From IMG/VR virus record IMGVR_UViG_2778261009_000002: a DNA stretch of 20,820 nucleotides, one strand, 5' to 3'. A program made the position numbers and the translations under genes. Numbering within the stretch: the first letter of the stretch is position 1; the number at the start of each line of letters is the position of its first letter. The notes beneath the pieces were generated by a model that was given only the letters and a program-made list of their open reading frames with translations, was not told where the DNA came from and did no database searches. This DNA is from a virus (Duplodnaviria; Heunggongvirae; Uroviricota; Caudoviricetes). Positions 1-20,672 of the stretch are shown in pieces.

Positions 1-142
1 GCTGGAAAGGCTGGGCCATACTCCTCCGGCAGAAGCAGAAAAAGCTTATTATGCTTCCATCGGAAACGATGATCTGGCAGCCTGAGTTCACAGATAAAAC
101 ACTCTCCAGGAAACCCGGGGCGGTTCAACCGGACGTTATGAT

Positions 143-553
143 TTAGCGTGGAAAGATTTGTGTAGTGTTCTGAATGCTCTCAGTAAATAGTAATGAATTA
201 TCAAAGGTATAGTAATATCTTTTATGTTCGTGGATATTTGTAACCCATCGGAAAACTCCTGCTTTAGCAAGATTTTCCCTGTATTGCTGAAATGTGATTT
301 CTCTTGATTTCAACCTATCAAAGGACGTTTCTATAAGATGCGTATTTCTTGAGAATTTAACATTTACAACCTTTTTAAGTCCTTTTATTAACACAGTGTT
401 ATCGTTTTCTAACACAATGTGAATATTATCTGTGGCTAGATAGTAAATATAATGTGAGACATTGTGACGTTTTAGTTCAGAATAAAACAATTCACAGTTT
501 AAATCTTTTCGCACTTGATCGAATATTTCTTTAAAAATGGCAACCTGAGCCAT
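143..553 (-). CDS. Hypothetical moron protein, 136 aa; possibly DUF1398 / YbcV-YdfO-like (by recollection only)
   Basis: The six-frame ORF 143..676 has a TTG at 674-676, not an ATG. The in-frame ATG at 551-553 is preceded by GGAAGG at about 8 nt spacing and gives a 136-aa protein ([13 protein letters not shown]...). The region is visibly AT-rich compared with the flanking phage DNA. Family assignment rests on memory of the gene order upstream of the Nu1 homolog in E. coli cryptic prophages. Confidence 0.5.
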
Positions 554-838
554 TGGTAAAACCTTCCATGTGATACGAGGGCGCGTAGTTTGCATTATCG
601 TTTTTATCGTTTCAATCTGGTCTGACCTCTTTGTGTTTTGTTGATGATTTATGTCAAATATTAGGAATGTTTTCAATTAATAGTATTGGTTGTGTAACAA
701 AGTGCGGTCCTGCTGGCATTCTGGAGGGAAATACAACCGACAGATGTATGTAAGGCCAACGTGCTCAAATCTTCATACAGAAAGATTTGAAGTAATATTT
801 TAACCGCTAGATGAAGAGCAAGCGCATGGAGCGACAAA

Positions 839-1045
839 ATGAATAAAGAACAATCTGCTGATGATCCCTCCGTGGATCTGATTCGTGTAAAAAATATGCT
901 TAATAGCACCATTTCTATGAGTTACCCTGATGTTGTAATTGCATGTATAGAACATAAGGTGTCTCTGGAAGCATTCAGGGCAATTGAGGCAGCGTTGGTG
1001 AAGCACGATAATAATATGAAGGATTATTCCCTGGTGGTTGACTGA
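839..1045 (+). CDS. Small hypothetical protein, 68 aa (possibly YbcW/YnfO-like)
   Basis: ATG at 839 with GGAG about 9 nt upstream; 68-aa ORF divergent from the 136-aa gene and convergent with the 64-aa gene. No recognisable catalytic motif. Confidence 0.45.
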
Positions 1046-1209
1046 TCACCATAACTGCTAATCATTCAAACTACTTAACCTGTGACAGAGCCAACACGCA
1101 GTCTGTCACTGTCAGGAAAGTGGTAAAACTGCAACTCAATTACTGCAATGCCCTCGTAATTAAGTGAATTTACAATATCGTCCTGTTCGGAGGGAAGAAC
1201 GCGGGATGT

Positions 1210-1404
1210 TCATTCTTCATCACTTTTAATTGATGTATATGCTCTCTTTTCTGACGTTAGCCTCCGACGGCAGGCTTCAATGACCCAGGCTGAGAAATTC
1301 CCGGACCCTTTTTGATCAAGAGCGATGTTAATTTGTTCAATCATTTGGTTAGGAAAGCGGATGTTGCGGGTTGTTGTTCTGCGGGTTCTGTTCTTCGTTG
1401 ACAT
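1210..1404 (-). CDS. Small basic protein, 64 aa, with ribbon-helix-helix-like core (possibly YlcI / DUF3950-like)
   Basis: ATG at 1402-1404 on the minus strand. Arg/Thr-rich N-terminus followed by IRFPNQMIEQINIALDQKGSGNFSAWVIEACRRRL, which fits a beta-strand/helix/turn/helix RHH pattern. The Shine-Dalgarno is weak. Confidence 0.45.
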   Translation of the reverse strand: MSTKNRTRRTTTRNIRFPNQMIEQINIALDQKGSGNFSAWVIEACRRRLTSEKRAYTSIKSDEE

Positions 1405-1569
1405 GAGGTTGCCCCGTATTCAGTGTCGCTGATTTGTATTGTCTGAAGTTGTTTTTACGTTAAGTTGATGCGGATCAATTAATACGATACCTGCGTCATA
1501 ATTGATTATTTGACGTGGTTTGATGGCGTAGATGCACGTTGTGACATGTAGATGATAATTATTATCATT

Positions 1570-1790
1570 TTGCGGGTCCTTTCCGGCGATCCGACAGGTT
1601 ACGGGGCGGCGACCTCGCGGGTTTTCGCTATTTATGAAAATTTTCCGGTTTAAGGTGTTTCCGTTCTTCTTCGTCGTAACTTAATGTTTTTATTTAAAAT
1701 ACCCCCTGAAAAGAAAGGAAACGACAGGTGCTGAAAACGGGCTTTTTGGCCTTTGTCGTTTCCTTTCTCTGTTTTTGTCCGTGGAATGAA
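1570..1790 (+). other. cos: Cohesive-end site cos (cosQ-cosN-cosB), lambda type
   Basis: GGGCGGCGACCT at 1604-1615 matches the 12-nt lambda cohesive end (cosN). Downstream are Nu1-binding R-element-like repeats: R3 about 1655-1673 (GTGTTTCCGTTCTTCTTCG), inverted R2 about 1712-1728 (GAAAGGAAACGACAGG), R1 about 1753-1769 (TTGTCGTTTCCTTTCTC), with an AT-rich IHF-like stretch between R3 and R2. Upstream sequence from about 1440 resembles the lambda right end. Confidence 0.85.
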
Positions 1791-1792
1791 CA

Positions 1793-2312
1793 ATGGAAGT
1801 CAACAAAAAGCAGCTGGCTGACATTTTCGGTGCGAGTATCCGTACCATTCAGAACTGGCAGGAACAGGGAATGCCCGTTCTGCGAGGCGGTGGCAAGGGT
1901 AATGAGGTGCTTTATGACTCTGCCGCCGTTATAAAATGGTATGCCGAAAGGGATGCTGAAATTGAGAACGAAAAGCTGCGCCGGGAAGTTGAAGAACTGC
2001 GGCAGGCCAGCGAGACAGATCTCCAGCCAGGGACTATTGAGTACGAACGCCATCGACTTACGCGTGCGCAGGCCGACGCACAGGAACTGAAGAATGCCAG
2101 AGACTCCGCTGAAGTGGTGGAAACCGCATTCTGTACTTTCGTGCTGTCGCGGATCGCAGGTGAAATTGCCAGTATTCTCGACGGGATCCCCCTGTCGGTG
2201 CAGCGGCGTTTTCCGGAACTGGAAAACCGACATGTTGATTTCCTGAAACGGGATATCATCAAAGCCATGAACAAAGCAGCCGCGCTGGATGAACTGATAC
2301 CGGGGTTGCTGA

Positions 2313-2338
<26 letters not shown>
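1793..2338 (+). CDS. nu1: Terminase small subunit Nu1
   Basis: 181-aa ORF starting MEVNKKQLADIFGASIRTIQNWQEQGMPVLRGGG, near-identical to lambda gpNu1 as I remember it. Starts immediately after cosB and overlaps the A start by 26 nt, as in lambda. Confidence 0.97.
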
Positions 2339-6019
<3,681 letters not shown>

Positions 6020-6039
<20 letters not shown>

Positions 6040-7339
6040 TCTCCCGCATATTGCCAGCATGGCCTTTAATGAGCCGCTGATGCTTGAACCCGCCTATGCG
6101 CGGGTTTTCTTTTGTGCGCTTGCAGGCCAGCTTGGGATCAGCCGCCTGACGGATGCGGTGTCCGGCGACAGCCTGACTGCCCAGGAGGCACCCGCGACGC
6201 TGGCATTATCCGGTGATGATGACGGACCACGACAGGCCCGCAGTTATCAGGTCATGAACGGCATCGCCGTGCTGCCGGTGTCCGGCACGCTGGTCAGCCG
6301 GACGCGGGCGCTGCAGCCGTACTCGGGGATGACCGGTTACAACGGCATTATCGCCCGTCTGCAACAGGCTGCCAGCGACCCGATGGTGGACGGCATTCTG
6401 CTCGATATGGACACACCGGGCGGAATGGTGGCGGGAGCATTTGACTGCGCTGACATCATCGCCCGTGTGCGTGACATAAAACCGGTATGGGCGCTGGCCA
6501 ACGACATGAACTGCAGTGCAGGTCAGCTGCTTGCCAGTGCCGCCTCCCGGCGTCTGGTCACGCAGACCGCCCGGACAGGCTCCATCGGCGTCATGATGGC
6601 TCACAGTAATTACGGTGCTGCCCTGGAGAAACAGGGTGTGGAAATCACGCTGATTTACAGCGGCAGCCATAAGGTGGATGGCAATCCCTACAGCCATCTT
6701 CCGGATGACGTCCGGGAGACACTGCAGTCCCGGATGGACGCAACCCGCCAGATGTTTGCGCAGAAGGTGTCGGCATATACCGGCCTGTCTGTGCAGGCTG
6801 TGCTGGATACCGAGGCTGCAGTGTACAGCGGTCAGGAGGCCATTGATGCCGGACTGGCTGATGAACTTGTTAACAGCACCGATGCGATCACCGTCATGCG
6901 TGATGCACTGGATGCGCGTAAATCCCGTCTCTCAGGAGGGCGAATGACCAAAGAGACTCAATCAACAACTGTTTCAGCCACTGCTTCGCAGACTGACGTT
7001 ACTGACGTGGTGCCAGCGACGGAGGGCGAAAACGCCAGCGCGGCGCAGCCGGACGTGAACGCGCAGATCACCGCTGCGGTTGCGGCAGAAAACAGCCGCA
7101 TTATGGGGATCCTCAACTGTGAGGAGGCTCACGGACGCGAAGAACAGGCCCGCGTGCTGGCAGAAACCCCCGGTATGACCGTGGAAACGGCCCGCCGCAT
7201 TCTGGCAGCTGCACCACAGAGTGCACAGGCGCGCAGTGACACTGCGCTGGATCGTCTGATGCAGGGGGCACCGGCACCGCTGGCTGCAGGTAACCCGGCA
7301 TCTGATGCCGTTAACGATTTGCTGAACACACCAGTGTAA
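6020..7339 (+). CDS. C: Head maturation protease / scaffold C
   Basis: The six-frame ORF runs from 5873, but the lambda-type start is the GTG at 6020 (VTAELRNLPHIASMAFNEPLML...), preceded by GAGGAGGAGAAG. This gives 439 aa, overlapping the B 3' end by 20 nt as in lambda. Confidence 0.93.
6734..7339 (+). CDS. nu3: Scaffolding protein Nu3 (in-frame internal start within C)
   Basis: In-frame ATG at 6734 (MDATRQMFAQKVSAYTGL...) gives 201 aa sharing the C stop. This matches the known nested C/Nu3 arrangement in lambda. Confidence 0.8.
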   Translation: MDATRQMFAQKVSAYTGLSVQAVLDTEAAVYSGQEAIDAGLADELVNSTDAITVMRDALDARKSRLSGGRMTKETQSTTVSATASQTDVTDVVPATEGENASAAQPDVNAQITAAVAAENSRIMGILNCEEAHGREEQARVLAETPGMTVETARRILAAAPQSAQARSDTALDRLMQGAPAPLAAGNPASDAVNDLLNTPV

Positions 7340-7348
7340 GGGATGTTT

Positions 7349-7681
7349 ATGACGAGCAAAGAAACCTTTACCCATTACCAGCCGCTGGGCAACAGTGACC
7401 CGGCACATACGGCAACCGCGCCCGGCGGATTGAGTGCGAAAGCGCCTGCAATGACCCCGCTGATGCTGGATACCTCCACCCGTAAGCTGGTTGCGTGGGA
7501 TGGCACCACCGACGGTGCTGCCGTTGGCATTCTGGCGGTTGATGCTGACCAGACCAGCACCACGCTGACGTTCTACAAGTCCGGCACGTTCCGTTATGAG
7601 GATGTGCTCTGGCCGGAGGCTGCCAGCGACGAGACGAAAAAACGGACCGCGTTTGCCGGAACGGCAATCAGCATCGTTTAA
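7349..7681 (+). CDS. D: Head decoration protein D
   Basis: [22 protein letters not shown]..., 110 aa from the ATG at 7349 (lambda gpD is 110 aa). An alternative ATG lies 6 nt upstream at 7343. Confidence 0.93.
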
Positions 7682-7699
7682 CTTTACCCTTCATCACTA

Positions 7700-7723
7700 A
7701 AGGCCGCCTGTGCGGCTTTTTTT
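7700..7723 (+). terminator. Intrinsic-terminator-like hairpin between D and E
   Basis: AAAGGCCGC-CTGT-GCGGC followed by TTTTTTT: a 5-6 bp GC stem, 4-nt loop and T7 run, ending about 14 nt before the E start codon. Confidence 0.4.
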
Positions 7724-7736
7724 ACGGGATTTTTTT

Positions 7737-8762
7737 ATGTCGATGTACACAACCGCCCAGCTGCTGGCGGCAAATGAGCAGAAATTTAAGTTTGATCCGC
7801 TGTTTCTGCGTCTCTTTTTCCGTGAGAGCTATCCCTTCACTACGGAGAAAGTCTATCTCTCACAAATTCCGGGACTGGTAAACATGGCGCTGTACGTTTC
7901 GCCGATTGTTTCCGGTGAGGTTATCCGTTCCCGTGGCGGCTCCACCTCTGAATTTACGCCGGGATATGTCAAACCCAAGCATGAAGTGAATCCGCAGATG
8001 ACCCTGCGTCGCCTGCCGGATGAAGATCCGCAGAATCTGGCGGACCCGGCTTACCGCCGCCGTCGCATCATCCTGCAGAACATGCGTGACGAAGAGCTGG
8101 CCATTGCTCAGGTCGAAGAGATGCAGGCAGTTTCTGCCGTGCTCAAGGGCAAATACACCATGACCGGTGAAGCCTTCGATCCGGTTGAGGTGGATATGGG
8201 CCGCAGTGCGGCGAACAACATCACGCAGTCCGGCGGCACGGAGTGGAGCAAGCGTGACAAGTCCACGTATGACCCGACCGACGATATCGAAGCCTACGCG
8301 CTGAACGCCAGCGGAGTGGTGAATATCATCGTGTTTGATCCGAAAGGCTGGGCGCTGTTCCGTTCCTTCAAAGCCGTCAAGGAGAAGCTGGATACCCGTC
8401 GCGGCTCTCATTCCGAGCTGGAGACAGCGGTGAAAGACCTGGGTAAAGCGGTGTCCTATAAGGGGATGTATGGCGATGTGGCCATCGTCGTGTATTCCGG
8501 ACAGTACGTGGAAAACGGCGTCAAAAAGAACTTCCTGCCGGACAACACGATGGTGCTGGGTAACACTCATGCACGCGGTCTGCGCACCTATGGCTGTATT
8601 CAGGATGCGGATGCATTGAGTGAGGGTATTAATGCGTCTCCCCGTTATCCGAAAAACTGGAAGACATCCGGCGATCCGGCGCGAGAGTTCACCATGATTC
8701 AGTCAGCACCGCTGATGCTGCTGGCTGATCCTGATGAGTTCGTGTCCGTTCAACTGGCGTAA
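7737..8762 (+). CDS. E: Major capsid protein E
   Basis: The six-frame ORF starts at 7710, but the lambda N-terminus MSMYTTAQLLAANEQKFKFDPLFLRLFF begins at the ATG at 7737, giving 341 aa as in lambda gpE. Confidence 0.96.
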   Translation: MSMYTTAQLLAANEQKFKFDPLFLRLFFRESYPFTTEKVYLSQIPGLVNMALYVSPIVSGEVIRSRGGSTSEFTPGYVKPKHEVNPQMTLRRLPDEDPQNLADPAYRRRRIILQNMRDEELAIAQVEEMQAVSAVLKGKYTMTGEAFDPVEVDMGRSAANNITQSGGTEWSKRDKSTYDPTDDIEAYALNASGVVNIIVFDPKGWALFRSFKAVKEKLDTRRGSHSELETAVKDLGKAVSYKGMYGDVAIVVYSGQYVENGVKKNFLPDNTMVLGNTHARGLRTYGCIQDADALSEGINASPRYPKNWKTSGDPAREFTMIQSAPLMLLADPDEFVSVQLA

Positions 8763-8764
8763 TC

Positions 8765-8782
8765 ATGGCCCTTCGGGGCCAT
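8765..8782 (+). other. Stable RNA hairpin with UUCG tetraloop between E and FI
   Basis: ATGGCCC-TTCG-GGGCCAT: a perfect 7-bp stem with a UUCG loop, starting 3 nt after the E stop and ending about 21 nt before the FI start. No long T tract follows. Confidence 0.3.
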
Positions 8783-8803
8783 TGTTTCTCTGTGGAGGAG
8801 TCC

Positions 8804-9199
8804 ATGACGAAAGATGAACTGATTGCCCGTCTCCGCTCGCTGGGTGAACAACTGAACCGTGATATCAGCCTGACGGGGACGAAAGAAGAACTGGCGCTCC
8901 GTGTGGCAGAGCTGGAAGAAGAGCTTGATGACACGGGCGACACTGCCGATCAGGATACCCCTCTCAGCCCGGAAAATGTGCTGACCGGACATGAAAATGA
9001 GGTTGTATCAGCGCAGCCGGATACCGTGACTGATACGGCTGATCTGGTCACGGTTGTGGCACTGGTGACGCTGCATACTGATGCACTTCACGCCACGCGG
9101 GATGAGGCTGTGGCATTTGTGCTGCCGGGAACGGCGTTCCGTGTCTCTGCCGGTGTGGCAGCTGAAATGACAGAGCGCGGCCTGGCCAGAATGCAATAA
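8804..9199 (+). CDS. FI: DNA-packaging / head assembly protein FI
   Basis: ATG at 8804 preceded by GGAGGAG (MTKDELIARLRSLGEQLNRD...), 131 aa versus about 132 in lambda. The six-frame ORF extends upstream to 8765 across the hairpin. Confidence 0.93.
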   Translation: MTKDELIARLRSLGEQLNRDISLTGTKEELALRVAELEEELDDTGDTADQDTPLSPENVLTGHENEVVSAQPDTVTDTADLVTVVALVTLHTDALHATRDEAVAFVLPGTAFRVSAGVAAEMTERGLARMQ

Positions 9200-9210
9200 C
9201 GGGAGGCGCT

Positions 9211-9564
9211 GTGGCTGATTTCGATAACCTGTTCGATGCTGCCATTGCCTGCGCCGATGAAACGATACGCGGGTACATGGGAACGTCAGCCACCATGACA
9301 TCCGGTGAGCAGTCCGGTGCTGTGATACGTGGTGTTTTTGATGACCCTGAAAATATCAGCTATGCCGGACAGGGCGTGCGCGTTGAAGGCTCCAGCCCGT
9401 CCCTGTTTGTCCGGACTGATGATGTGCGGCAGCTGCGGCGCGGCGACACGCTGACCATCGGTGAGGAAAACTTCTGGATAGACCGGATTTCGCCGGATGA
9501 TGGCGGAAGCTGTCATCTCTGGCTTGGGCGGGGCGTACCGCCTGCCGTTAACCGTCGCCGCTGA
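9211..9564 (+). CDS. FII: Head-tail connector (head completion) protein FII
   Basis: 117-aa ORF with a GTG start at 9211 (ADFDNLFDAAIACADETIRGYMG...), same length as lambda gpFII. Confidence 0.93.
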   Translation: MADFDNLFDAAIACADETIRGYMGTSATMTSGEQSGAVIRGVFDDPENISYAGQGVRVEGSSPSLFVRTDDVRQLRRGDTLTIGEENFWIDRISPDDGGSCHLWLGRGVPPAVNRRR

Positions 9565-9575
9565 AAGGGGGATGT

Positions 9576-10154
9576 ATGGCCATAAAAGGTCTTGAGCAGG
9601 CCGTTGAAAACCTCAGCCGTATCAGCAGAACGGCGGTGCCCGGTGCCGCCGCAATGGCCATTAACCGCGTTGCTTCATCCGCGATATCGCAGTCGGTGGC
9701 ACAGGTTGCCCGTGAGACAAAGGTACGCCGGAAACTGGTAAAGGAAAGGGCCAGGCTGAAAAGGGCCACGGTCAAAAATCCGCAGGCCAGAATCAGGGTT
9801 AACCGGGGGGATTTGCCCGTAATCAAGCTGGGTAACGCGCGGGTTGTCCTTTCCCGCCGCAGACGTCGTAAAAAGGGGCAGCGTTCATCCCTGAAAGGTG
9901 GCGGCAGCGTGCTTGTGGTGGGAAACCGTCGTATTCCCGGCGCGTTTATTCAGCAACTGAAAAATGGCCGGTGGCATGTCATGCAGCGTGTGGCCGGGAA
10001 AAACCGTTACCCCATTGATGTGGTGAAAATCCCGATGGCGGTGCCGCTTACCACGGCGTTTAAACAGAATATTGAACGGATACGGCGTGAACGTCTTCCG
10101 AAAGAGCTGGGCTATGCGCTGCAGCATCAACTGAGGATGGTAATAAAGCGATGA
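9576..10154 (+). CDS. Z: Tail completion protein Z
   Basis: 192-aa ORF (MAIKGLEQAVENLSRIS...), same length as lambda gpZ. Confidence 0.95.
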   Translation: MAIKGLEQAVENLSRISRTAVPGAAAMAINRVASSAISQSVAQVARETKVRRKLVKERARLKRATVKNPQARIRVNRGDLPVIKLGNARVVLSRRRRRKKGQRSSLKGGGSVLVVGNRRIPGAFIQQLKNGRWHVMQRVAGKNRYPIDVVKIPMAVPLTTAFKQNIERIRRERLPKELGYALQHQLRMVIKR

Positions 10155-10546
10155 AACATACTGAACTCCGTGCAGCCGTACTGGATGCACTGGAGAAGCA
10201 TGACACCGGGGCGACGTTTTTTGATGGTCGCCCCGCTGTTTTTGATGAGGCGGATTTTCCGGCAGTTGCCGTTTATCTCACCGGCGCTGAATACACGGGC
10301 GAAGAGCTGGACAGCGATACATGGCAGGCGGAGCTGCATATTGAAGTTTTCCTGCCTGCTCAGGTGCCGGATTCAGAGCTGGATGCGTGGATGGAGTCCC
10401 GGATTTATCCGGTGATGAGTGATATCCCGGCACTGTCAGATTTGATCACCAGTATGGTGGCCAGCGGCTATGACTACCGGCGCGACGATGATGCGGGCCT
10501 GTGGAGTTCAGCCGATCTGACTTATGTCATTACCTATGAAATGTGA
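10151..10546 (+). CDS. U: Tail terminator protein U
   Basis: 131-aa ORF ([26 protein letters not shown]...) overlapping the Z stop; same length as lambda gpU. Confidence 0.95.
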
Positions 10547-10553
10547 GGACGCT

Positions 10554-11294
10554 ATGCCTGTACCAAATCCTGTAATGCCGGTGAAAGGTGCCGGGACCAC
10601 CCTGTGGGTTTATAAGGGAAGCGGTGACCCTTATGCGAATCCGCTTTCAGACGTTGACTGGTCGCGTCTGGCAAAAGTTAAAGACCTGACGCCCGGCGAA
10701 CTGACCGCTGAGTCCTATGACGACAGCTATCTCGATGATGAAGATGCAGACTGGACTGCGACCGGGCAGGGGCAGAAATCTGCCGGAGATACCAGCTTCA
10801 CGCTGGCGTGGATGCCCGGAGAGCAGGGGCAGCAGGCGCTGCTGGCGTGGTTTAATGAAGGCGATACCCGTGCCTATAAAATCCGCTTCCCGAACGGCAC
10901 GGTCGATGTGTTCCGTGGCTGGGTCAGCAGTATCGGTAAGGCGGTGACGGCGAAGGAAGTGATCACCCGCACGGTGAAAGTCACCAATGTGGGACGTCCG
11001 TCGATGGCAGAAGATCGCAGCACGGTAACAGCGGCAACCGGCATGACCGTGACGCCTGCCAGCACCTCGGTGGTGAAAGGGCAGAGCACCACGCTGACCG
11101 TGGCCTTCCAGCCGGAGGGCGTAACCGACAAGAGCTTTCGTGCGGTGTCTGCGGATAAAACAAAAGCCACCGTGTCGGTCAGTGGTATGACCATCACCGT
11201 GAAAGGCGTTGCTGCAGGTAAGGTCAACATTCCGGTTGTATCCGGTAATGGTGAACTTGCTGCGGTTGCAGAAATCACTGTCACCGACAGTTAA
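10554..11294 (+). CDS. V: Major tail tube protein V (with C-terminal Ig-like domain)
   Basis: ATG at 10554 preceded by GAGGAC ([22 protein letters not shown]...), 246 aa as in lambda gpV. The C-terminal ~90 aa are Thr/Val/Ser-rich, consistent with the known Ig-like domain. The six-frame ORF starts further upstream at 10524. Confidence 0.95.
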
Positions 11295-11309
11295 TCCGGA
11301 GAGTCAGCG

Positions 11310-11732
11310 ATGTTCCTGAAAACCGAATCATTTGAACATAACGGCGTGACCGTCACGCTTTCTGAACTGTCAGCCCTGCAGCGTATTGAGCATCTCGCCC
11401 TGATGAAACGGCAGGCAGAACAGGCGGAGTCAGACAGCAACCGGAAGTTTACTGTGGAAGACGCCATCAGAACCGGTGCTTTTGTGGTGGCTATGTCCCT
11501 GTGGCATAACCATCCGCAGAAGACAAAGCAGCCTTCCATGAATGAAGCCGTTAAACAGATTGAGCAGGAAGTGCTTACCACCTGGCCCACAGAGGCAATT
11601 TCTCATGCTGAAAACGTGGTGTACCGGCTGTCCGGTATGTATGAGTTTGTGGTGAATGATGCCCCTGAACAGGCAGAGGACGCCGGGCCTGCAGAGCCTG
11701 TTTCTGCGGGAAAGTGTTCGACGGTGAGCTGA
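11310..11732 (+). CDS. G: Tail assembly chaperone G
   Basis: 140-aa ORF (MFLKTESFEHNGVTVTLSELSALQRIEHLALM...), same length as lambda gpG. Confidence 0.93.
   Translation: MFLKTESFEHNGVTVTLSELSALQRIEHLALMKRQAEQAESDSNRKFTVEDAIRTGAFVVAMSLWHNHPQKTKQPSMNEAVKQIEQEVLTTWPTEAISHAENVVYRLSGMYEFVVNDAPEQAEDAGPAEPVSAGKCSTVS
11708..11714 (+). promoter_or_regulatory. Programmed -1 ribosomal frameshift slippery heptamer G_GGA_AAG (G to GT)
   Basis: GGGAAAG at 11708-11714, with GGA and AAG as codons 134-135 of the G frame. The -1 frame is open from 11714 to 12148. Confidence 0.85.
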
Positions 11733-12148
11733 GCTTTGCCCTGAAACTGGCGCGCGAGATGGGGCGACCCGACTGGCGTGCCATGCTTGCCGGGATGTCA
11801 TCCACGGAGTATGCCGACTGGCACCGCTTTTACAGTACCCATTATTTTCATGATGTTCTGCTGGATATGCACTTTTCCGGGCTGACGTACACCGTGCTCA
11901 GCCTGTTTTTCAGCGATCCGGATATGCATCCGCTGGATTTCAGTCTGCTGAACCGGCGTGAGGCTGACGAAGAGCCTGAAGATGATGTGCTGATGCAGAA
12001 AGCAGCAGGGCTTGCCGGAGGCGTCCGCTTTGGCCCGGACGTGAATGAAGTTATCCCCGTTTCCCCGGATGTGGCGGACATGACGGAGGATGACGTAATG
12101 CTGATGACAGTATCAGAAGGGATCGCAGGAGGAGTCCGGTATGGCTGA
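11714..12148 (+). CDS. T: T segment of tail assembly protein GT (expressed as G-T fusion by -1 frameshift; product spans 11310..11713 joined to 11713..12148)
   Basis: The -1 frame ORF begins directly at the slippery site (VFDGELSFALKLAREMGRPDWRAML...) and ends 8 nt into H, the lambda arrangement. It has no independent ATG or RBS. Confidence 0.85.
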   Translation: MFDGELSFALKLAREMGRPDWRAMLAGMSSTEYADWHRFYSTHYFHDVLLDMHFSGLTYTVLSLFFSDPDMHPLDFSLLNRREADEEPEDDVLMQKAAGLAGGVRFGPDVNEVIPVSPDVADMTEDDVMLMTVSEGIAGGVRYG

Positions 12149-14702
12149 ACCGGTAGGCGATCTGGTCGTTGATTTAAGTCTGGATGCGGCCAGATTTGAC
12201 GAGCAGATGGCCAGAGTCAGGCGTCATTTTTCCGGTACGGAAAGTGATGCGAAAAAAACAGCGGCAGTCGTTGAACAGTCGCTGAGCCGACAGGCGCTGG
12301 CTGCACAGAAAGCGGGGATTTCCGTCGGGCAGTATAAAGCTGCCATGCGTATGCTGCCTGCGCAGTTCACCGACGTGGCCACGCAGCTTGCAGGCGGGCA
12401 AAGTCCGTGGCTGATCCTGCTGCAACAGGGTGGTCAGGTGAAGGACTCCTTCGGCGGGATGATCCCCATGTTCAGGGGGCTTGCCGGTGCGATCACCCTG
12501 CCGATGGTCGGGGCCACCTCGCTGGCGGTGGCGACCGGTGCGCTGGCGTATGCCTGGTATCAGGGCAACTCAACCCTGTCCGATTTCAACAAAACGCTGG
12601 TCCTTTCCGGCAATCAGTCGGGTCTGACGGCAGATCGTATGCTGGTCCTGTCCAGAGCCGGGCAGGCGGCAGGGCTGACGTTTAACCAGACCAGCGAGTC
12701 ACTCAGCGCACTGGTTAAGGCGGGAGTAAGCGGTGAGGCTCAGATTGCATCCATCAGCCAGAGTGTGGCGCGTTTCTCCTCTGCATCCGGCGTGGAGGTG
12801 GACAAGGTCGCTGAAGCCTTCGGGAAGCTGACCACAGACCCGACGTCAGGGCTGACAGCGATGGCACGCCAGTTCCATAACGTGACGGCGGAGCAGATTG
12901 CGTATGTTGCTCAGTTGCAGCGTTCCGGCGATGAAGCCGGGGCATTGCAGGCGGCGAACGAGGCCGCGACGAAAGGGTTTGATGACCAGACCCGCCGCCT
13001 GAAAGAGAACATGGGTACGCTGGAGACCTGGGCAGACAGGACAGCGCGGGCATTCAAATCCATGTGGGATGCGGTGCTGGATATTGGTCGTCCTGATACC
13101 GCTCAGGAGATGCTGATTAAGGCAGAGGCTGCGTTTAAGAAAGCGGACGACATCTGGAGTCTGCGCAAGGATGATTATTTTGTTAACGATGAAGCGCGGG
13201 CGCGTTACTGGGATGATCGTGAAAAGGCCCGTCTTGCGCTTGAAGCCGCGAGAAAGAAGGCTGAACAGCAGAGTCAACAGGACAAAAATGCGCAGCAGCA
13301 GAGCGATACTGAAGCGTCACGGCTGAAATATACCGAAGAGGCGCAGAAAGCTTACGAACGGCTGCAGACGCCGCTGGAGAAATATACCGCCCGTCAGGAA
13401 GAACTGAACAAGGCACTGAAGGACGGGAAAATTCTGCAGGCAGATTACAACACGCTGATGGCGGCGGCGAAAAAGGACTATGAAGCGACGCTGAAAAAGC
13501 CGAAACAGTCCGGCGTGAAGGTGTCTGCGGGCGATCGTCAGGAAGACAGTGCTCATGCTGCCCTGCTGACGCTTCAGGCTGAACTCCGGACGCTGGAGAA
13601 GCATGCCGGAGCAAATGAGAAAATCAGCCAGCAGCGCCGGGATTTGTGGAAGGCGGAGAGTCAGTTCGCGGTACTGGAGGAGGCGGCGCAACGTCGCCAG
13701 CTGTCTGCACAGGAGAAATCCCTGCTGGCGCATAAAGATGAGACGCTGGAGTACAAACGCCAGCTGGCTGCACTTGGCGACAAGGTTACGTATCAGGAGC
13801 GCCTGAACGCGCTGGCGCAGCAGGCGGATAAATTCGCACAGCAGCAACGGGCAAAACGGGCCGCTATTGATGCGAAAAGCCGGGGGCTGACTGACCGGCA
13901 GGCAGAACGGGAAGCCACGGAACAGCGCCTGAAGGAACAGTATGGCGATAATCCTCTGGCGCTGAATAACGTCATGTCAGAGCAGAAAAAGACCTGGGCG
14001 GCTGAAGACCTGCTTCGCGGGAACTGGATGGCAGGCCTCAGGTCCGGCTGGAGCGAGTGGAAAGAGAGTGCCACGGACAGTATGTCGCAGGTTAAAAGTG
14101 CAGCCACGCAGACCTTTGATGGTATTGCGCAGAATATGGCGGCGATGCTGACCGGCAGTGAACAGAACTGGCGCAGCTTCACCCGCTCCGTGCTGTCCAT
14201 GATGACAGAAATTCTGCTTAAGCAGGCAATGGTGGGGATTGTCGGGAGTATCGGCAGCGCCATTGGCGGGGCTGTTGGTGGCGGCGCATCCGCGTCAGGC
14301 GGTACAGCCATTCAGGCCGCTGCGGCGAAATTCCATTTTGCAACCGGAGGATTTACGGGAACCGGCGGCAAATATGAGCCAGCGGGGATTGTTCACCGTG
14401 GTGAATTTGTCTTCACAAAGGAGGCAACCAGCCGGATTGGCGTGGGGAATCTCTACCGGCTGATGCGCGGCTATGCCACCGGTGGTTATGTCGGTACACC
14501 GGGCAGTCTGGCTGACAGCCGGTCGCAGGCGTCCGGGACGTTTGAGCAGAATAACCATGTGGTGATTAACAACGACGGCACGAACGGGCAGATAGGTCCG
14601 GCTGCTCTGAAGGCGGTGTATGACATGGCCCGCAAGGGTGCCCGTGATGAAATTCAGACACAGATGCGTGATGGTGGACTGTTCTCCGGAGGTGGACGAT
14701 GA
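12141..14702 (+). CDS. H: Tail tape measure protein H
   Basis: 853-aa ORF, same length as lambda gpH, with coiled-coil-like Ala/Gln/Glu/Lys-rich repeats and a Gly-rich C-terminal region. Confidence 0.97.
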   Translation: MAEPVGDLVVDLSLDAARFDEQMARVRRHFSGTESDAKKTAAVVEQSLSRQALAAQKAGISVGQYKAAMRMLPAQFTDVATQLAGGQSPWLILLQQGGQVKDSFGGMIPMFRGLAGAITLPMVGATSLAVATGALAYAWYQGNSTLSDFNKTLVLSGNQSGLTADRMLVLSRAGQAAGLTFNQTSESLSALVKAGVSGEAQIASISQSVARFSSASGVEVDKVAEAFGKLTTDPTSGLTAMARQFHNVTAEQIAYVAQLQRSGDEAGALQAANEAATKGFDDQTRRLKENMGTLETWADRTARAFKSMWDAVLDIGRPDTAQEMLIKAEAAFKKADDIWSLRKDDYFVNDEARARYWDDREKARLALEAARKKAEQQSQQDKNAQQQSDTEASRLKYTEEAQKAYERLQTPLEKYTARQEELNKALKDGKILQADYNTLMAAAKKDYEATLKKPKQSGVKVSAGDRQEDSAHAALLTLQAELRTLEKHAGANEKISQQRRDLWKAESQFAVLEEAAQRRQLSAQEKSLLAHKDETLEYKRQLAALGDKVTYQERLNALAQQADKFAQQQRAKRAAIDAKSRGLTDRQAEREATEQRLKEQYGDNPLALNNVMSEQKKTWAAEDLLRGNWMAGLRSGWSEWKESATDSMSQVKSAATQTFDGIAQNMAAMLTGSEQNWRSFTRSVLSMMTEILLKQAMVGIVGSIGSAIGGAVGGGASASGGTAIQAAAAKFHFATGGFTGTGGKYEPAGIVHRGEFVFTKEATSRIGVGNLYRLMRGYATGGYVGTPGSLADSRSQASGTFEQNNHVVINNDGTNGQIGPAALKAVYDMARKGARDEIQTQMRDGGLFSGGGR

Positions 14703-15028
14703 AAACCTTCCGCTGGAAAGTGAAACCCGGTATGGATGTGGCTTCGGCCCCTTCTGTAAGAAAGGTGCGCTTTGGTGATGGCTATTCCCAGCGAGCGCCT
14801 GCCGGGCTGAATGCCAACCTGAAAACGTACAGCGTGACGCTTTCTGTCCCCCGTGAGGAGGCCACGGTACTGGAGTCGTTTCTGGAAGAGCACGGGGGCT
14901 GGAAAGCCTTTCTGTGGACGCCGCCTTATGAGTGGCGGCAGATAAAGGTGACCTGCGCAAAATGGTCGTCGCGGGTCAGTATGCTGCGTGTTGAGTTCAG
15001 CGCAGAGTTTGAACAGGTGGTGAACTGA
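14699..15028 (+). CDS. M: Tail tip assembly protein M
   Basis: 109-aa ORF (MKTFRWKVKPGMDVASAPSVRKVRFGDGYSQRAP...) overlapping the H stop; same length as lambda gpM. Confidence 0.95.
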   Translation: MKTFRWKVKPGMDVASAPSVRKVRFGDGYSQRAPAGLNANLKTYSVTLSVPREEATVLESFLEEHGGWKAFLWTPPYEWRQIKVTCAKWSSRVSMLRVEFSAEFEQVVN

Positions 15029-15726
15029 TGCAGGATATCCGGCAGGAAACACTGAATGAATGCACCCGTGCGGAGCAGTCGGCCAGCGTGGTGCTCTGGG
15101 AAATCGACCTGACAGAGGTCGGTGGAGAACGTTATTTTTTCTGTAATGAGCAGAACGAAAAAGGTGTGCCGGTCACCTGGCAGGGGCGACAGTATCAGCC
15201 GTATCCCATTCAGGGGAGTGGTTTTGAACTGAATGGCAAAGGCACCAGTACGCGCCCCACGCTGACGGTTTCTAACCTGTACGGTATGGTCACCGGGATG
15301 GCGGAAGATCTGCAGAGTCTGGTCGGCGGAACGGTGGTCCGGCGTAAGGTTTACGCCCGTTTTCTGGATGCGGTGAACTTCGTCAACGGAAACAGTGACG
15401 CCGATCCGGAGCAGGAGGTGATCAGCCGCTGGCGCATCGAGCAGTGCAGCGAACTGAGCGCGGTGAGTGCCTCCTTTGTACTGTCCACGCCGACGGAAAC
15501 GGATGGCGCTGTTTTTCCGGGACGTATCATGCTGGCCAACACCTGCACCTGGACCTATCGCGGTGATGAGTGCGGTTATCACGGTCCGGCAGTCGCGGAT
15601 GAATATGACCAGCCGACGTCCGATATCACGAAGGATAAATGCAGCAAATGCCTGAGCGGCTGTAAGTTTCGCAATAACGTCGGCAACTTTGGCGGCTTCC
15701 TTTCCATTAACAAACTTTCGCAGTAA
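15028..15726 (+). CDS. L: Tail tip protein L
   Basis: 232-aa ORF (MQDIRQETLNECTRAEQSASVVLWEIDLTEVGGERYFF...) with a cysteine cluster near the C-terminus; same length as lambda gpL. Confidence 0.95.
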   Translation: MQDIRQETLNECTRAEQSASVVLWEIDLTEVGGERYFFCNEQNEKGVPVTWQGRQYQPYPIQGSGFELNGKGTSTRPTLTVSNLYGMVTGMAEDLQSLVGGTVVRRKVYARFLDAVNFVNGNSDADPEQEVISRWRIEQCSELSAVSASFVLSTPTETDGAVFPGRIMLANTCTWTYRGDECGYHGPAVADEYDQPTSDITKDKCSKCLSGCKFRNNVGNFGGFLSINKLSQ

Positions 15727-15731
15727 ATCCC

Positions 15732-16475
15732 ATGACACAGACAGAATCAGCGATTCTGGCGCACGCCCGGCGATGTGCGCCAGCGGAGTCGTGCGGCTTC
15801 GTGGTAAGCACGCCGGAGGGGGAAAGATATTTCCCCTGCGTGAATATCTCCGGTGAGCCGGAGGCGTATTTCCGTATGTCGCCGGAAGACTGGCTGCAGG
15901 CAGAAATGCAGGGTGAGATTGTGGCGCTGGTCCACAGCCACCCCGGTGGTCTGCCCTGGCTGAGTGAGGCTGACCGGCGGCTGCAGGTGCAGAGTGATTT
16001 GCCGTGGTGGCTGGTCTGCCGGGGGGCGATTCACAAGTTCCGCTGTGTGCCGCATCTCACCGGGCGGCGCTTTGAGCACGGGGTGACGGACTGTTACACG
16101 CTGTTCCGGGATGCTTATCATCTGGCGGGGATTGAGATGCCGGATTTTCATCGCGGGGATGACTGGTGGCGTCACGGTCAGAATCTCTATCTGGATAATC
16201 TGGAGGCCACAGGGCTGTATCAGGTGCCGTTGTCATCAGCACAACCGGGCGATGTGCTGCTGTGCTGTTTTGGTTCATCGGTGCCGAATCATGCCGCCAT
16301 TTACTGTGGTGATGGCGAGCTGCTGCACCATATTCCTGAACAACTGAGCAAACGAGAGAGGTATACCGACAAATGGCAGCGACGCACACACTCCCTCTGG
16401 CGTCACCGGTCATGGCGCGCATCTGCCTTTACGGGGATTTGCAACGATTTGGCCGCCGCATCGACCTTCGTGTGA
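15732..16475 (+). CDS. K: Tail tip assembly protein K (MPN/JAMM plus NlpC/P60-like); full-length ORF 247 aa
   Basis: ATG at 15732, 6 nt after the L stop. Contains HSHPGG (JAMM-type motif) and a Cys/His arrangement compatible with an NlpC/P60 domain (VTDCYTLF ... HAAIY). The commonly annotated 199-aa lambda K would correspond to the internal ATG at 15875 (MSPEDWLQAEM...), which has GGAGG upstream. Confidence 0.85.
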   Translation: MTQTESAILAHARRCAPAESCGFVVSTPEGERYFPCVNISGEPEAYFRMSPEDWLQAEMQGEIVALVHSHPGGLPWLSEADRRLQVQSDLPWWLVCRGAIHKFRCVPHLTGRRFEHGVTDCYTLFRDAYHLAGIEMPDFHRGDDWWRHGQNLYLDNLEATGLYQVPLSSAQPGDVLLCCFGSSVPNHAAIYCGDGELLHHIPEQLSKRERYTDKWQRRTHSLWRHRSWRASAFTGICNDLAAASTFV

Positions 16476-17044
16476 AAACGGGGGCTGAAGCCATCCGGGC
16501 ACTGGCCACACAGCTCCCGGCGTTTCGTCAGAAACTGAGCGACGGCTGGTATCAGGTACGGATTGCCGGGCGGGACGTCAGCACGTCCGGGTTAACGGCG
16601 CAGTTACATGAGACTCTGCCTGATGGCGCTGTGATTCATATTGTTCCCAGAGTCGCCGGGGCCAAGTCAGGTGGCGTATTCCAGATTGTCCTGGGGGCTG
16701 CCGCCATTGCCGGATCATTCTTTACCGCCGGAGCCACCCTTGCAGCATGGGGGGCAGCCATTGGGGCCGGTGGTATGACCGGCATCCTGTTTTCTCTCGG
16801 TGCCAGTATGGTGCTCGGTGGTGTGGCGCAGATGCTGGCACCGAAAGCCAGAACTCCCCGTACACAGACAACGGATAACGGTAAGCAGAACACCTATTTC
16901 TCCTCACTGGATAACATGGTTGCCCAGGGCAATGTTCTGCCTGTTCTGTACGGGGAAATGCGCGTGGGGTCTCGCGTGGTTTCTCAGGAGATCAGCACGG
17001 CAGACGAAGGGGACGGTGGTCAGGTTGTGGTGATTGGTCGCTGA
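16373..17044 (+). CDS. I: Tail tip assembly protein I
   Basis: 223-aa ORF (MAATHTLPLASPVMARICLYGDLQRFGRRIDLRVKTG...) overlapping the K 3' end by about 100 nt, as in lambda. Confidence 0.93.
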   Translation: MAATHTLPLASPVMARICLYGDLQRFGRRIDLRVKTGAEAIRALATQLPAFRQKLSDGWYQVRIAGRDVSTSGLTAQLHETLPDGAVIHIVPRVAGAKSGGVFQIVLGAAAIAGSFFTAGATLAAWGAAIGAGGMTGILFSLGASMVLGGVAQMLAPKARTPRTQTTDNGKQNTYFSSLDNMVAQGNVLPVLYGEMRVGSRVVSQEISTADEGDGGQVVVIGR

Positions 17045-17104
17045 TGCAAAATGTTTTATGTGAAACCGCCTGCGGGCGGTTTTGTCATTTATGGAGCGTG
17101 AGGA

Positions 17105-20602: not shown

Positions 20603-20623
20603 AATATTTATAACCCCAATAAA

Positions 20624-20649: not shown

Positions 20650-20672
20650 TTGCAGAAAAGCGAGAGGTAATT

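What the first reader, a model, noticed from the sequence alone, without database searches (positions are those of the whole stretch)
143..1404. AT-rich three-gene moron block of unknown function immediately upstream of cos
The first ~1.4 kb is visibly AT-rich (for example about 25% G+C across 181-240), while the phage structural genes are clearly GC-richer. It holds a 136-aa minus-strand ORF, a divergent 68-aa plus-strand ORF and a convergent 64-aa minus-strand ORF with an RHH-like core. In lambda this position carries bor and ea ORFs, so this is a swapped cargo module. From memory the order resembles the ybcV-ybcW-ylcI block next to the Nu1 homolog in E. coli cryptic prophage DLP12, whose functions are to my knowledge still uncharacterised. 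A small DNA-binding-like protein next to two unknowns could be a regulator plus effector or a toxin-antitoxin-like pair, but nothing in the sequence proves that. This is the most plausible place in the window for an uncharacterised function.
Basis: partly seen in the sequence, partly recalled or inferred. Interest (0 to 1): 0.5.

Follow-up and report, generated by a model that had tools for sequence, protein, structure and literature searches.

The report
Lambda's own right-end accessory genes
The AT-rich stretch before cos is not a swapped-in module but phage lambda's own right end (ybcV, ybcW, ylcI), three real, independently assorting accessory genes whose functions are still mostly unknown.

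Summary
Window 143-1404 is AT-rich (38% G+C against 57% in the structural genes; 181-240 is exactly 25%). It carries a 136-aa minus ORF, a 68-aa plus ORF and a 64-aa minus ORF, ending 199 bp before the cos nick.

The central interpretation is wrong. Window 127-1603 aligns without gaps to lambda 47026-48502 at 98.2% identity. The ORFs are lambdap78 (YbcV, DUF1398), lambdap79 (YbcW) and an unannotated YlcI (DUF3950) homologue.

All three are under purifying selection. They assort independently: all three together, YlcI alone, YlcI+YbcW, YlcI+YbcV, and YbcV+YbcW without YlcI all occur. An obligate toxin-antitoxin or regulator-effector unit is therefore unlikely.

- **YlcI** is the most constrained and most widespread. 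It always lies head-to-head with the packaging genes, and in P4-like satellites with the icd-primase operon. Several weak tests agree on an Arc-like ribbon-helix-helix fold.
- **YbcW** is identical to the lambda protein that a 2026 preprint reports as the activator of the Vulcan NADase defence.
- **YbcV** is about 85% identical to the solved YdfO structure, whose function is unknown.

Known genes, modest interest.

The parts
1..127 (+). Right end of an IS3-family IS629/IS1203-like element (terminal inverted repeat at 80-127). It forms the left boundary of the block and replaces the bor side.
   Evidence: the O157 prophages annotate an IS1203 transposase here. Homology to lambda starts at 127. 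No complete E. coli genome has this exact junction.
143..553 (-). ybcV / lambdap78, a DUF1398 protein of 136 aa. An alternative TTG start at 676 gives the 177-aa lambda RefSeq model.
   Evidence: Pfam DUF1398 1.7e-46. About 85% identical to the YdfO NMR structure 2HH8, E 3e-71. 98.5% identical to lambda. dN/dS 0.21-0.34. No transmembrane segment. The 136-aa start is the one conserved in Qin-type loci, where ylcI ends 43-57 bp upstream.
554..838 (.). Divergent ybcV-ybcW control region. It contains the PdhR box ATCTGGTCTGACCTCTT at 614-630, the tandem repeat TTATCGTTT x2 at 595-612, and an inverted repeat at 765-790.
   Evidence: Sequence and repeats. PdhR SELEX site and about 10-fold lower ybcV and ybcW mRNA in a pdhR mutant (PMC7660256). 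Hha binding and induction of ybcW (PMC2408971).
839..1045 (+). ybcW / lambdap79, a 68-aa acidic protein (pI 4.9) on the strand of the late (pR') transcript.
   Evidence: 100% identical to lambda lambdap79. Reported activator of the Vulcan NIR/DUF4062 NADase defence, with escape phages deleting it (bioRxiv 10.64898/2026.09.04.749371). No Pfam family. PHROG 657. The family is tiny.
1046..1209 (.). Spacer between the convergent ybcW and ylcI genes. It contains an imperfect hairpin at about 1079-1116.
   Evidence: Sequence. ybcW-ylcI is listed as a convergent overlapping-transcript pair in K-12 RNA-seq (PMC12288877).
1210..1404 (-). ylcI homologue (YlcI/YnfO family, DUF3950), a 64-aa basic protein (pI 10.5) with a probable Arc-like ribbon-helix-helix DNA-binding fold. 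It is not annotated in lambda RefSeq (48109-48303).
   Evidence: Pfam DUF3950 5.4e-20, NCBIfam YlcI_YnfO_N. dN/dS 0.03-0.09. RHH evidence. Lambda annotation table.
1405..1603 (.). Region upstream of ylcI, which is also the right end of the virion DNA (cosQ side). It contains an inverted repeat at 1474-1506, TTGACGT at 1510-1516, and the palindrome ATGATAATTATTATCAT at 1552-1568.
   Evidence: Conserved in all lambda-type loci but unrelated in BP-4795.
1604..1615 (+). 12-nt cohesive end (cosN), GGGCGGCGACCT.
   Evidence: Lambda 48502 equals window 1603; sequence.
1793..2338 (+). Nu1 (small terminase subunit), the first gene of the packaging operon and head-to-head with ylcI.
   Evidence: The ylcI-to-Nu1 start-to-start spacing is a constant ~388 nt in 88 loci.

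Best explanation
This is the accessory region at the right end of lambda-type phage chromosomes, between the lysis genes and cos. It is not one system. It holds three separately acquired, separately expressed small genes that are dispensable for plaque formation.

1. **ylcI** (minus strand, next to cos) most likely encodes a small dimeric Arc/Mnt-like ribbon-helix-helix DNA-binding regulator. It would be made from its own promoter, reading against the late transcript, so in lysogens or early in infection. In every context found it sits head-to-head with the first gene of a major operon: Nu1-A or HNH-TerS-TerL in lambdoid phages, and icd-primase in P4-like satellites. The inferred role is a repressor or modulator acting at that divergent control region.

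2. **ybcV** encodes a soluble cytoplasmic DUF1398 protein. It is expressed from the prophage under host control (H-NS/Hha silencing, PdhR activation). That makes it a lysogenic-conversion type gene whose biochemical activity is unknown.

3. **ybcW** lies on the late-transcript strand. It encodes a small acidic protein with a conserved helical core that is made during lytic growth. It is what the Vulcan NADase defence senses. Its benefit to the phage is unknown.

**Shown here:** identity with lambda and DLP12, coding selection, independent assortment, gene neighbourhoods.
**Taken from papers:** non-essentiality, Vulcan activation, PdhR and Hha effects.
**Inferred:** the RHH fold, the regulatory role of YlcI, and the timing of expression.
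For: **Identity**
- 98.2% gapless match to lambda 47026-48502.
- RefSeq names ybcV, ybcW and ylcI.
- Pfam and NCBIfam hits.
- The YdfO structure 2HH8.

**Real genes**
- dN/dS values.

**Independent assortment**
- Among 88 loci: Nu1-YlcI-YbcW-YbcV-Bor-Rz in about 45, Nu1-YlcI-Bor-Rz in about 25, and Nu1-YlcI-YbcW without YbcV in about 11.
- Qin, ev099 and PhiR42 have YlcI followed by YbcV, without YbcW.
- BP-4795 has YlcI alone, beside a different terminase.
- Tritos has YbcV and YbcW without YlcI.
- Phage records holding each gene: YlcI 155, YbcW 40, YbcV 43.

**YlcI as an RHH protein**
- hhalign against verified Arc aligns in register (N14/R16/P18/G33 to Arc N11/R13/P15/G30). The E-value improves as the profile gets more diverse: 0.032, then 0.0058, then 0.0019.
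- The best PDB sequence hits are RHH proteins: CdbA, and the CopG-family chain 9KKD at E 0.065.
- Three of the four Foldseek PDB hits are RHH proteins: Arc, NikR and ParD2.
- A weak PHROG HicB-like hit, E 0.016.

**Regulatory neighbourhood of the YlcI family**
- In 67 satellite loci the family member is the lone opposite-strand gene between alpA/ant and icd-primase. An Icd-like gene lies directly upstream in about 52 of them.
- A TTGACGT element sits at a fixed -65 to -90 from the start, and repeated GGTGT..ACAC motifs lie in the spacer.

**Expression and dispensability, from papers**
- CRISPRi: lambdap78 non-essential; lambdap79 scores as essential only through polarity, and is non-essential in the literature (PMC10695390).
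- Vulcan escape phages delete lambdap79, and co-expression with Vulcan is toxic.
- PdhR, Hha, MotB/H-NS, the ybcW-ylcI excludon.
Against: - No operator was found. Nothing is shared between the lambda-type and BP-4795 flanks. The TCAATTA repeats do not survive correction for multiple testing.
- The sigma-70 promoter scan is no better than shuffled sequence and finds no minus-strand promoter for ylcI.
- No promoter is known in front of Nu1 in lambda, so a 'repressor of the divergent operon' has no known target there.
- In the Qin-type arrangement ylcI and ybcV are a tight tandem pair, which would fit a functional couple.
- Nothing here shows what YbcV or YbcW do for the phage.
Confidence: 0.75

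Rival explanations
1. One reading: the block is one cargo system, with YlcI as an RHH antitoxin or regulator and YbcV (with or without YbcW) as its toxin or effector.
For: - In Qin, ev099 and PhiR42-type loci, ylcI (77 aa) is followed 43-57 bp later by ybcV on the same strand, like a type II TA operon.
- The RHH-like N-terminal domain is nearly invariant, while the C-terminal tail changes with the downstream neighbour.
- A weak PHROG HicB-like hit.
Against: - YbcV occurs without YlcI in the cultured phage Tritos.
- YlcI occurs without YbcV in about 40% of 88 loci and in most of the 155 phage records.
- In this window the two genes are 656 bp apart, with an opposite-strand gene and a separate control region between them.
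- YbcV and YdfO tolerate over-expression: the ASKA glycogen screen (PMC2853380), over-expression raising oxidative-stress resistance (PMC4077768), and production for NMR (2HH8).
- PADLOC gives no credible defence-family hit.
Confidence: 0.1
2. lambdap78 (YbcV) is a structural virion or envelope protein, as its 'head protein' and 'putative envelope protein' labels say.
For: PHROG 413 is labelled 'head protein'. RefSeq and GenBank records carry 'head protein' or 'putative envelope protein'.
Against: - The gene is encoded antisense to the late operon.
- CRISPRi knock-down has no effect on plating (efficiency of plating 1.9 and 1.3; PMC10695390).
- There is no signal peptide or hydrophobic segment.
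- It is absent from many phages with about 99% identical Nu1 and the same structural module.
- Homologues YdfO and YbcV sit in defective prophages and are regulated by host factors.
Confidence: 0.02
3. The ORFs are non-coding by-products of AT-rich spacer DNA kept for cos function.
For: The region next to cos is highly conserved at the DNA level in lambda-type phages. The promoter and terminator scans are no better than shuffled sequence.
Against: - dN/dS is well below 1 with many synonymous changes.
- In BP-4795 ylcI is conserved while all flanking DNA is unrelated.
- Curated Pfam and NCBIfam families match.
- A structure of YdfO has been solved.
- lambdap79 has a protein-level phenotype.
Confidence: 0.01
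4. YbcW is a counter-defence or host-takeover protein, and Vulcan acts as a guard that senses it. The block would then matter mainly as an anti-immunity locus.
For: - It is small, acidic, late-expressed, dispensable and narrowly distributed.
- Its N-terminus evolves fast (pN 0.19-0.23, equal to or above pS) while the core is constrained.
- It is the specific activator of a defence system.
Against: There is no homology to any known anti-defence protein. No phenotype of its loss other than Vulcan escape is reported. Defence systems also sense ordinary phage proteins.
Confidence: 0.2

Closest known systems
Phage lambda right end: lambdap78, lambdap79 and the unannotated ORF at 48109-48303
   Same: Same genes, order, strands and spacing. 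26 substitutions and no gaps over 1477 bp. YbcW is 100% identical, YbcV 98.5%, YlcI 98.4%.
   Different: Here an IS629/IS1203 element lies 16 bp beyond the ybcV stop, where lambda continues to bor.
E. coli K-12 cryptic prophage DLP12 ybcV-ybcW-ylcI-nohD, and Qin ynfO-ydfO-nohQ
   Same: DLP12 has the same three genes next to the Nu1 homologue. Qin has the ylcI and ybcV homologues.
   Different: Qin-type loci lack ybcW and have ylcI (77 aa, a different tail) directly in front of ybcV. This is the arrangement that replaces lambdap79 in Vulcan escape phages.
Arc and Mnt repressors of phage P22 immI (ribbon-helix-helix)
   Same: - Size of 53-83 aa.
- A basic N-terminal arm, then x-N-[LI]-R-[WF]-P, helix, Gly turn, helix.
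- Alignment in register with Arc.
- In satellites the family lies beside antA/antB and icd genes, as mnt and arc lie beside ant.
   Different: There is no significant sequence or profile hit. DNA binding, dimerisation and the operator are all unknown. The lambda-type gene lies beside cos and the terminase genes, not beside an antirepressor.
bor and lom of lambda (classical morons)
   Same: AT-rich, dispensable, present or absent between otherwise collinear phages, and (ybcV, ylcI) on the strand opposite to late transcription.
   Different: bor and lom are outer-membrane proteins with known phenotypes. These three are soluble, have no known phenotype, and ybcW lies on the late-transcript strand.
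Phage proteins that trigger abortive-infection defences (for example, activators of Avs, CapRel or Vulcan)
   Same: lambdap79 activates the Vulcan NADase, and its loss gives escape.
   Different: It is a dispensable orphan protein rather than a conserved structural or replication protein. Direct binding to Vulcan has not been shown in the passages read.

Membership tests
DUF1398 (PF07166; YbcV/YdfO) | Full-length match to the family HMM above the gathering score | tested here: met
   157.6 bits against a cut-off of 22, covering residues 8-126 and the whole 119-position model. E 3e-71 to the YdfO structure 2HH8.
YlcI/YnfO family (DUF3950, PF13132; NCBIfam NF041551) | Match above the curated cut-offs | tested here: met
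   Pfam 71.4 bits against 25. NCBIfam 36.6 bits against 30.
Ribbon-helix-helix (Arc/MetJ/CopG) superfamily | Significant sequence or profile similarity to an RHH family | tested here: inconclusive
   No RHH Pfam hit at E<=10. hhalign against CopG gives probability 0.1%. Against Arc it aligns in register, with E 0.032, then 0.0058, then 0.0019, and probability at most 14%. The top PDB profile hit is the CopG-family RHH chain 9KKD, E 0.065.
Ribbon-helix-helix (Arc/MetJ/CopG) superfamily | Fold: an N-terminal strand followed by two helices joined by a tight Gly turn | tested here: inconclusive
Ribbon-helix-helix (Arc/MetJ/CopG) superfamily | Obligate dimer that binds repeated operator half-sites through the paired strands | not testable with these tools
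   Only monomer prediction was available. No conserved operator was found.
Type II toxin-antitoxin pair (YlcI + YbcV) | The two genes co-occur as an adjacent co-oriented pair | tested here: not met
   In this window they are 656 bp apart with ybcW between them. YbcV occurs without YlcI in Tritos. YlcI occurs without YbcV in many loci. A tight tandem is found only in Qin-type loci.
Type II toxin-antitoxin pair (YlcI + YbcV) | Toxicity of the putative toxin, relieved by the antitoxin | not testable with these tools
   Papers report tolerated over-expression of ybcV and ydfO, and YdfO was produced for NMR. No direct test exists.
Moron (extra gene inserted between genes that are adjacent in related phages) | Presence or absence polymorphism between otherwise collinear phages | tested here: met
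   Nu1-YlcI-Bor-Rz against Nu1-YlcI-YbcW-YbcV-Bor-Rz and other combinations, with 95-100% identical flanks.
Moron (extra gene inserted between genes that are adjacent in related phages) | Base composition distinct from the surrounding genome | tested here: met
   38% against 57% G+C.
Moron (extra gene inserted between genes that are adjacent in related phages) | Own promoter and terminator, expressed from the prophage | tested here: inconclusive
   Consensus scans are no better than shuffles. Papers show host-factor-dependent ybcV and ybcW mRNA and ylcI transcripts in K-12.
Vulcan activator (lambdap79) | Same protein as the one shown to activate Vulcan | tested here: met
   100% identical over 68 aa to lambda lambdap79. 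The activity itself is taken from the preprint and was not tested here.
Known anti-phage defence proteins (PADLOC) | Credible hit to a defence-system model | tested here: not met
   Only a weak REase_II hit for YbcV (E 3.6e-4, 18 bits) and nothing for the other two.

The most novel reading that the evidence does not exclude
YlcI/YnfO (DUF3950) would be an unrecognised family of Arc/Mnt-like ribbon-helix-helix repressors of mobile elements, always placed head-to-head with a key operon. In P4-like/PICI satellites and phage-plasmids that operon is icd-primase. In lambdoid phages it is the packaging operon at cos. Phage lambda itself would then carry an unannotated DNA-binding regulator 200 bp from cos. 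That regulator could act on transcription entering the terminase genes, or on the cos region, in lysogens or early in infection. Separately, YbcW could be a counter-defence protein that Vulcan guards against.
Probability: 0.25. Interest if true: 0.55.

Novelty: already known. Interest (0 to 1): 0.3.

Why it matters
Lambda is the best-studied temperate phage, yet its last 1.5 kb still holds three conserved genes without a known role. One of them is not even annotated in the reference record.

The block is also extremely common. More than half of 5,426 complete E. coli genomes carry at least 80% of this 20.8-kb window. It is spiked into countless sequencing runs as control DNA.

Three practical consequences follow:
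- **Annotation.** The labels 'head protein' and 'envelope protein' for lambdap78 have no support, and ylcI should be added to the lambda record.
- **Experimental design.** The three genes should be studied one by one, not as a single system.
- **Testable leads.** YlcI may be an Arc-like regulator shared between phages and their satellites. YbcW is the handle by which a newly described NADase defence recognises lambda.

For the genome scan itself the finding is ordinary: known genes in their usual place.

Full report
**1. What is in the sequence**

- 143..553, minus strand, 136 aa from the ATG. The same frame opens at a TTG at 676, giving 177 aa.
- 839..1045, plus strand, 68 aa.
- 1210..1404, minus strand, 64 aa.

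G+C is 38.0% over 143-1404 and exactly 25.0% over 181-240. It is 56.9% over the structural genes at 1793-20820. The 12-nt cohesive end GGGCGGCGACCT lies at 1604-1615. The ylcI start codon is therefore 199 bp from the cos nick.

**2. Identity**

Megablast against phage records shows that window 127-1603 matches lambda 47026-48502 at 98.2%. A direct comparison gives 26 substitutions and no gaps over 1477 bp. So window position equals lambda position minus 46899.

- The 136/177-aa ORF is lambdap78.
- The 68-aa ORF is lambdap79.
- The 64-aa ORF corresponds to lambda 48109-48303, which the RefSeq record does not annotate.

RefSeq annotation of E. coli genomes names the same three genes ybcV (DUF1398), ybcW and ylcI (YlcI/YnfO family), next to nohD, the Nu1 homologue. 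The statement that lambda carries 'bor and ea ORFs' here, making this a swapped module, is wrong. Lambda has this very block, with bor further to the left.

Window 1-127 is the right end of an IS3-family IS629/IS1203 element, inserted 16 bp beyond the ybcV stop. In O157 prophages a copy lies 131 bp further away. No complete E. coli genome has this exact junction.

**3. Family assignments**

| Protein | Family hits | Other properties |
|---|---|---|
| YbcV | Pfam DUF1398, 1.7e-46; PHROG 413 labelled 'head protein' | About 85% identical to the YdfO NMR structure 2HH8, function unknown |
| YlcI | Pfam DUF3950, 5.4e-20; NCBIfam YlcI_YnfO_N; PHROG 949 | pI 10.5, with 6 Lys/Arg and no acidic residue in its first 20 residues |
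| YbcW | No Pfam family; PHROG 657 | pI 4.9 |

None of the three has a hydrophobic segment. PADLOC and Rfam give nothing credible.

**4. Are they genes?**

Nei-Gojobori comparisons with divergent alleles in fetched loci:

| Gene | Synonymous changes | Non-synonymous changes | dN/dS |
|---|---|---|---|
| YbcV | 24-30 | 29-39 | 0.21-0.34 |
| YlcI | 15; 18 | 2; 9 | 0.03; 0.09 |
| YbcW | 5-9 | 14-17 | 0.43-0.85 |

Within YbcW the first 22 codons change fast (pN 0.19-0.23). Codons 23-68 are constrained (pN about 0.04 against pS 0.10-0.23).

In phage BP-4795 only the ylcI coding sequence is conserved, and the DNA on both sides is unrelated. The conservation is therefore not a side effect of lying next to cos.

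**5. One system or three genes?**

I took 88 loci fetched around near-identical YlcI genes and located each protein by tblastn.
- About 45 loci have the lambda order Nu1-YlcI-YbcW-YbcV-Bor-Rz.
- About 25 have Nu1-YlcI-Bor-Rz, with neither YbcV nor YbcW.
- About 11 have Nu1-YlcI-YbcW (a 79-81% identical allele) without YbcV.

Other arrangements:
- Qin-type loci (ev099, PhiR42_1, K-12 Qin, Shigella, E. albertii) have ylcI (77 aa, a different tail) followed 43-57 bp later by ybcV, without ybcW.
- BP-4795 has ylcI alone, beside an HNH/TerS/TerL module of another type.
- The cultured phage Tritos has ybcV and ybcW but no ylcI. Homology to the window stops just before the ylcI stop codon, and the terminase is of another type.

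In the phage collection YlcI is found in 155 records, YbcW in 40 and YbcV in 43. The YlcI start is always about 388 nt from the Nu1 start, even where Nu1 is only 35-53% identical.

The three genes are therefore separable modules. An obligate toxin-antitoxin or regulator-effector unit is not supported. The Qin-type tandem keeps a looser functional link between ylcI and ybcV possible.

**6. What papers say**

- A bioRxiv preprint of September 2026 (10.64898/2026.09.04.749371) reports three things. All seven lambda-vir escapers of the Vulcan defence (a NIR/DUF4062 NADase) had deleted lambdap79, probably by recombination with Qin. Co-expressing lambdap79 with Vulcan is toxic. The authors conclude that lambdap79 activates Vulcan. 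The window's YbcW is 100% identical to that protein. The Qin-type arrangement I found is exactly the one lacking ybcW.
- A CRISPRi map of lambda scores lambdap78 as non-essential. It scores lambdap79 as 'essential', although the literature lists it as non-essential. That fits polarity on the late transcript (PMC10695390).
- In K-12, PdhR binds ATCTGGTCTGACCTCTT between ybcV and ybcW (window 614-630), and both mRNAs fall about 10-fold in a pdhR mutant (PMC7660256).
- Hha binds and induces ybcW (PMC2408971).
- T4 MotB, an H-NS antagonist, raises ybcV and ybcW more than 1000-fold (PMC7827196).
- ybcW-ylcI is listed as a convergent overlapping-transcript pair (PMC12288877).
- ydfO is stress-induced, and its over-expression is reported to raise oxidative-stress resistance (PMC4077768).
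- ybcV over-expression alters glycogen content (PMC2853380).

I found no paper that tests a function of YbcV or YlcI.

**7. Is YlcI ribbon-helix-helix?**

Negative or underpowered results:
- No RHH Pfam family at E<=10 for any member.
- A narrow family profile finds nothing in the PDB.
- hhalign against a CopG alignment gives probability 0.1%.
- The AlphaFold model has pLDDT 65, with helices 19-32 and 34-63 and an unstructured N-terminus.

Positive but weak results, all pointing the same way:
- Foldseek against the PDB returns only four hits (E 7-9). Three of them are RHH proteins: Arc-operator 1par_C, NikR 2wvf_B and ParD2 7r5a_D.
- hhalign against Arc, whose sequence I verified against 1ARQ, aligns YlcI N14/R16/P18/G33 with Arc N11/R13/P15/G30. 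In Arc, N11 and R13 are base-contacting strand residues (established knowledge of the Arc-operator structure).
- That E-value improves as I add more distant family members: 0.032, then 0.0058, then 0.0019, with probability rising to 14%.
- With the diverse profiles, the best PDB sequence hits are the RHH protein CdbA (E 0.63), and then a 'Ribbon-helix-helix protein, CopG family' chain, 9KKD. The latter scores E 0.065 over the whole domain and is the top hit of 177,635 sequences.
- There is a weak PHROG HicB-like hit, E 0.016.

I judge an RHH fold likely, about 0.8, but not proven.

**8. Wider context of the YlcI family**

Distant members (27-68% identical to one another, about 40% to lambda YlcI) occur in P4-like/PICI satellites and phage-plasmids of Klebsiella, Enterobacter, Morganella and others.

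In 67 such loci the gene is the only one on its strand. It lies between alpA (sometimes with antA/antB) and the icd-like-primase operon. An Icd-like gene lies directly upstream, in divergent orientation, in about 52 loci.

The short divergent spacer carries a TTGACGT element at a fixed -65 to -90 from the start codon, together with repeated GGTGT..ACAC motifs. This is the layout of a small repressor facing the operon it controls. It recalls P22 immI (mnt/arc/ant) and P1 immI (c4-icd-ant); that comparison is from my own knowledge.

In lambdoid phages the gene likewise faces the first packaging gene. This is inference from neighbourhood. No operator or target was demonstrated, and lambda has no known promoter in front of Nu1.

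**9. YbcV and YbcW**

- YbcW belongs to a very small family. Only 199 representatives out of 1.84 billion score E<=1e-3, and most are noisy lambda control reads. The most distant real homologue is 52% identical, and there are no domain fusions.
- YbcW's conserved core is [25 protein letters not shown].
- For YbcV, the only informative result is the match to 2HH8. The labels 'head protein' and 'envelope protein' have no support.

**10. Verdict**

- The identification with DLP12 is correct.
- The comparison with lambda is wrong.
- The single-system idea is not supported.

These are known, very common genes in their normal place, so the finding is ordinary for a genome scan. Three things remain of interest. 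All three functions are still open. YbcW now has a defined role as a defence trigger, from a preprint. YlcI looks like an overlooked Arc-like regulator family shared by lambdoid phages and their satellites.

Noticed in passing
window 1-127: Right end of an IS3-family IS629/IS1203-like element, inserted 16 bp beyond the ybcV stop. O157 prophages have a copy 131 bp further away. No complete E. coli genome in the collection has this junction, so the host may be a Shigella or an unsampled E. coli.
   Followed up: partly
database hits (for example L091-L125): Lambda control DNA contaminates many public assemblies: the ~3.5-kb ONT control amplicon, which is the lambda right end, and whole 48.5-kb lambda. 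Affected records are labelled Staphylococcus, Veillonella, Kitasatospora, Pseudomonas, a plant (Dovyalis caffra), 'Campylobacter phage CJLB-4' and small 'plasmids'. Error-laden reads create false divergent homologues of all three proteins.
   Followed up: partly
window 143-676; lambda 47042-47575: lambdap78 is labelled 'head protein' (PHROG 413, RefSeq) or 'putative envelope protein', and is modelled with a 177-aa TTG start. The conserved protein is the 136-aa form, and nothing supports a structural or envelope role.
   Followed up: yes
window 1210-1404; lambda 48109-48303: The lambda reference record NC_001416 does not annotate the ylcI homologue, although it is under the strongest purifying selection of the three genes.
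   Followed up: yes
window 614-630: The PdhR box ATCTGGTCTGACCTCTT reported for DLP12 is present in the ybcV-ybcW spacer. Next to it is a tandem repeat, TTATCGTTT x2, at 595-612.
   Followed up: no
window 673, 1136, 1227-1233, 1475, 1499-1505: The heptamer TCAATTA occurs five times in the block and nowhere else in the 20.8-kb window. Two copies form the inverted repeat at 1474-1506, upstream of ylcI. After correcting for the number of heptamers tested this is not significant, so it is only a candidate operator half-site.
   Followed up: partly
window 1541-1568 (+ strand): The best sigma-70-like match in the region is GTGACA-16-TATCAT (10 of 12 positions). It points towards cos and Nu1, diverges from ylcI, and overlaps the palindrome ATGATAATTATTATCAT at 1552-1568. 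The number of such sites is no higher than in shuffled sequence.
   Followed up: no
window 1712-1768: A 26-nt inverted repeat (81% complementary) lies between cosN and Nu1. It corresponds to the oppositely oriented Nu1-binding R sites of lambda cosB. That assignment is from my own knowledge and was not tested.
   Followed up: no
L133:2257-2784 (Enterobacter kobei plasmid p4_SCLZS19): A 175-aa YlcI-family protein has the conserved N-terminal domain plus a C-terminal extension of about 120 aa with no Pfam match. A second satellite subfamily (MATGAKNAKSQMTTVRIPHEVMEDIE...GESTAGFLVTAAKGEIKRR) looks even more like a classical RHH protein.
   Followed up: partly
L005:3134-4108 (vB_KppS-Ant): An annotated 324-aa hypothetical gene lies antisense to a well-conserved 67-aa YlcI-family ORF at 3501-3704. 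It is probably a mis-annotation.
   Followed up: no
whole window 127-20820: The lambda-like packaging, head and tail region is at least 80% covered in 3,003 of 5,426 complete E. coli genomes. The best matches are 99.0% identical.
   Followed up: no
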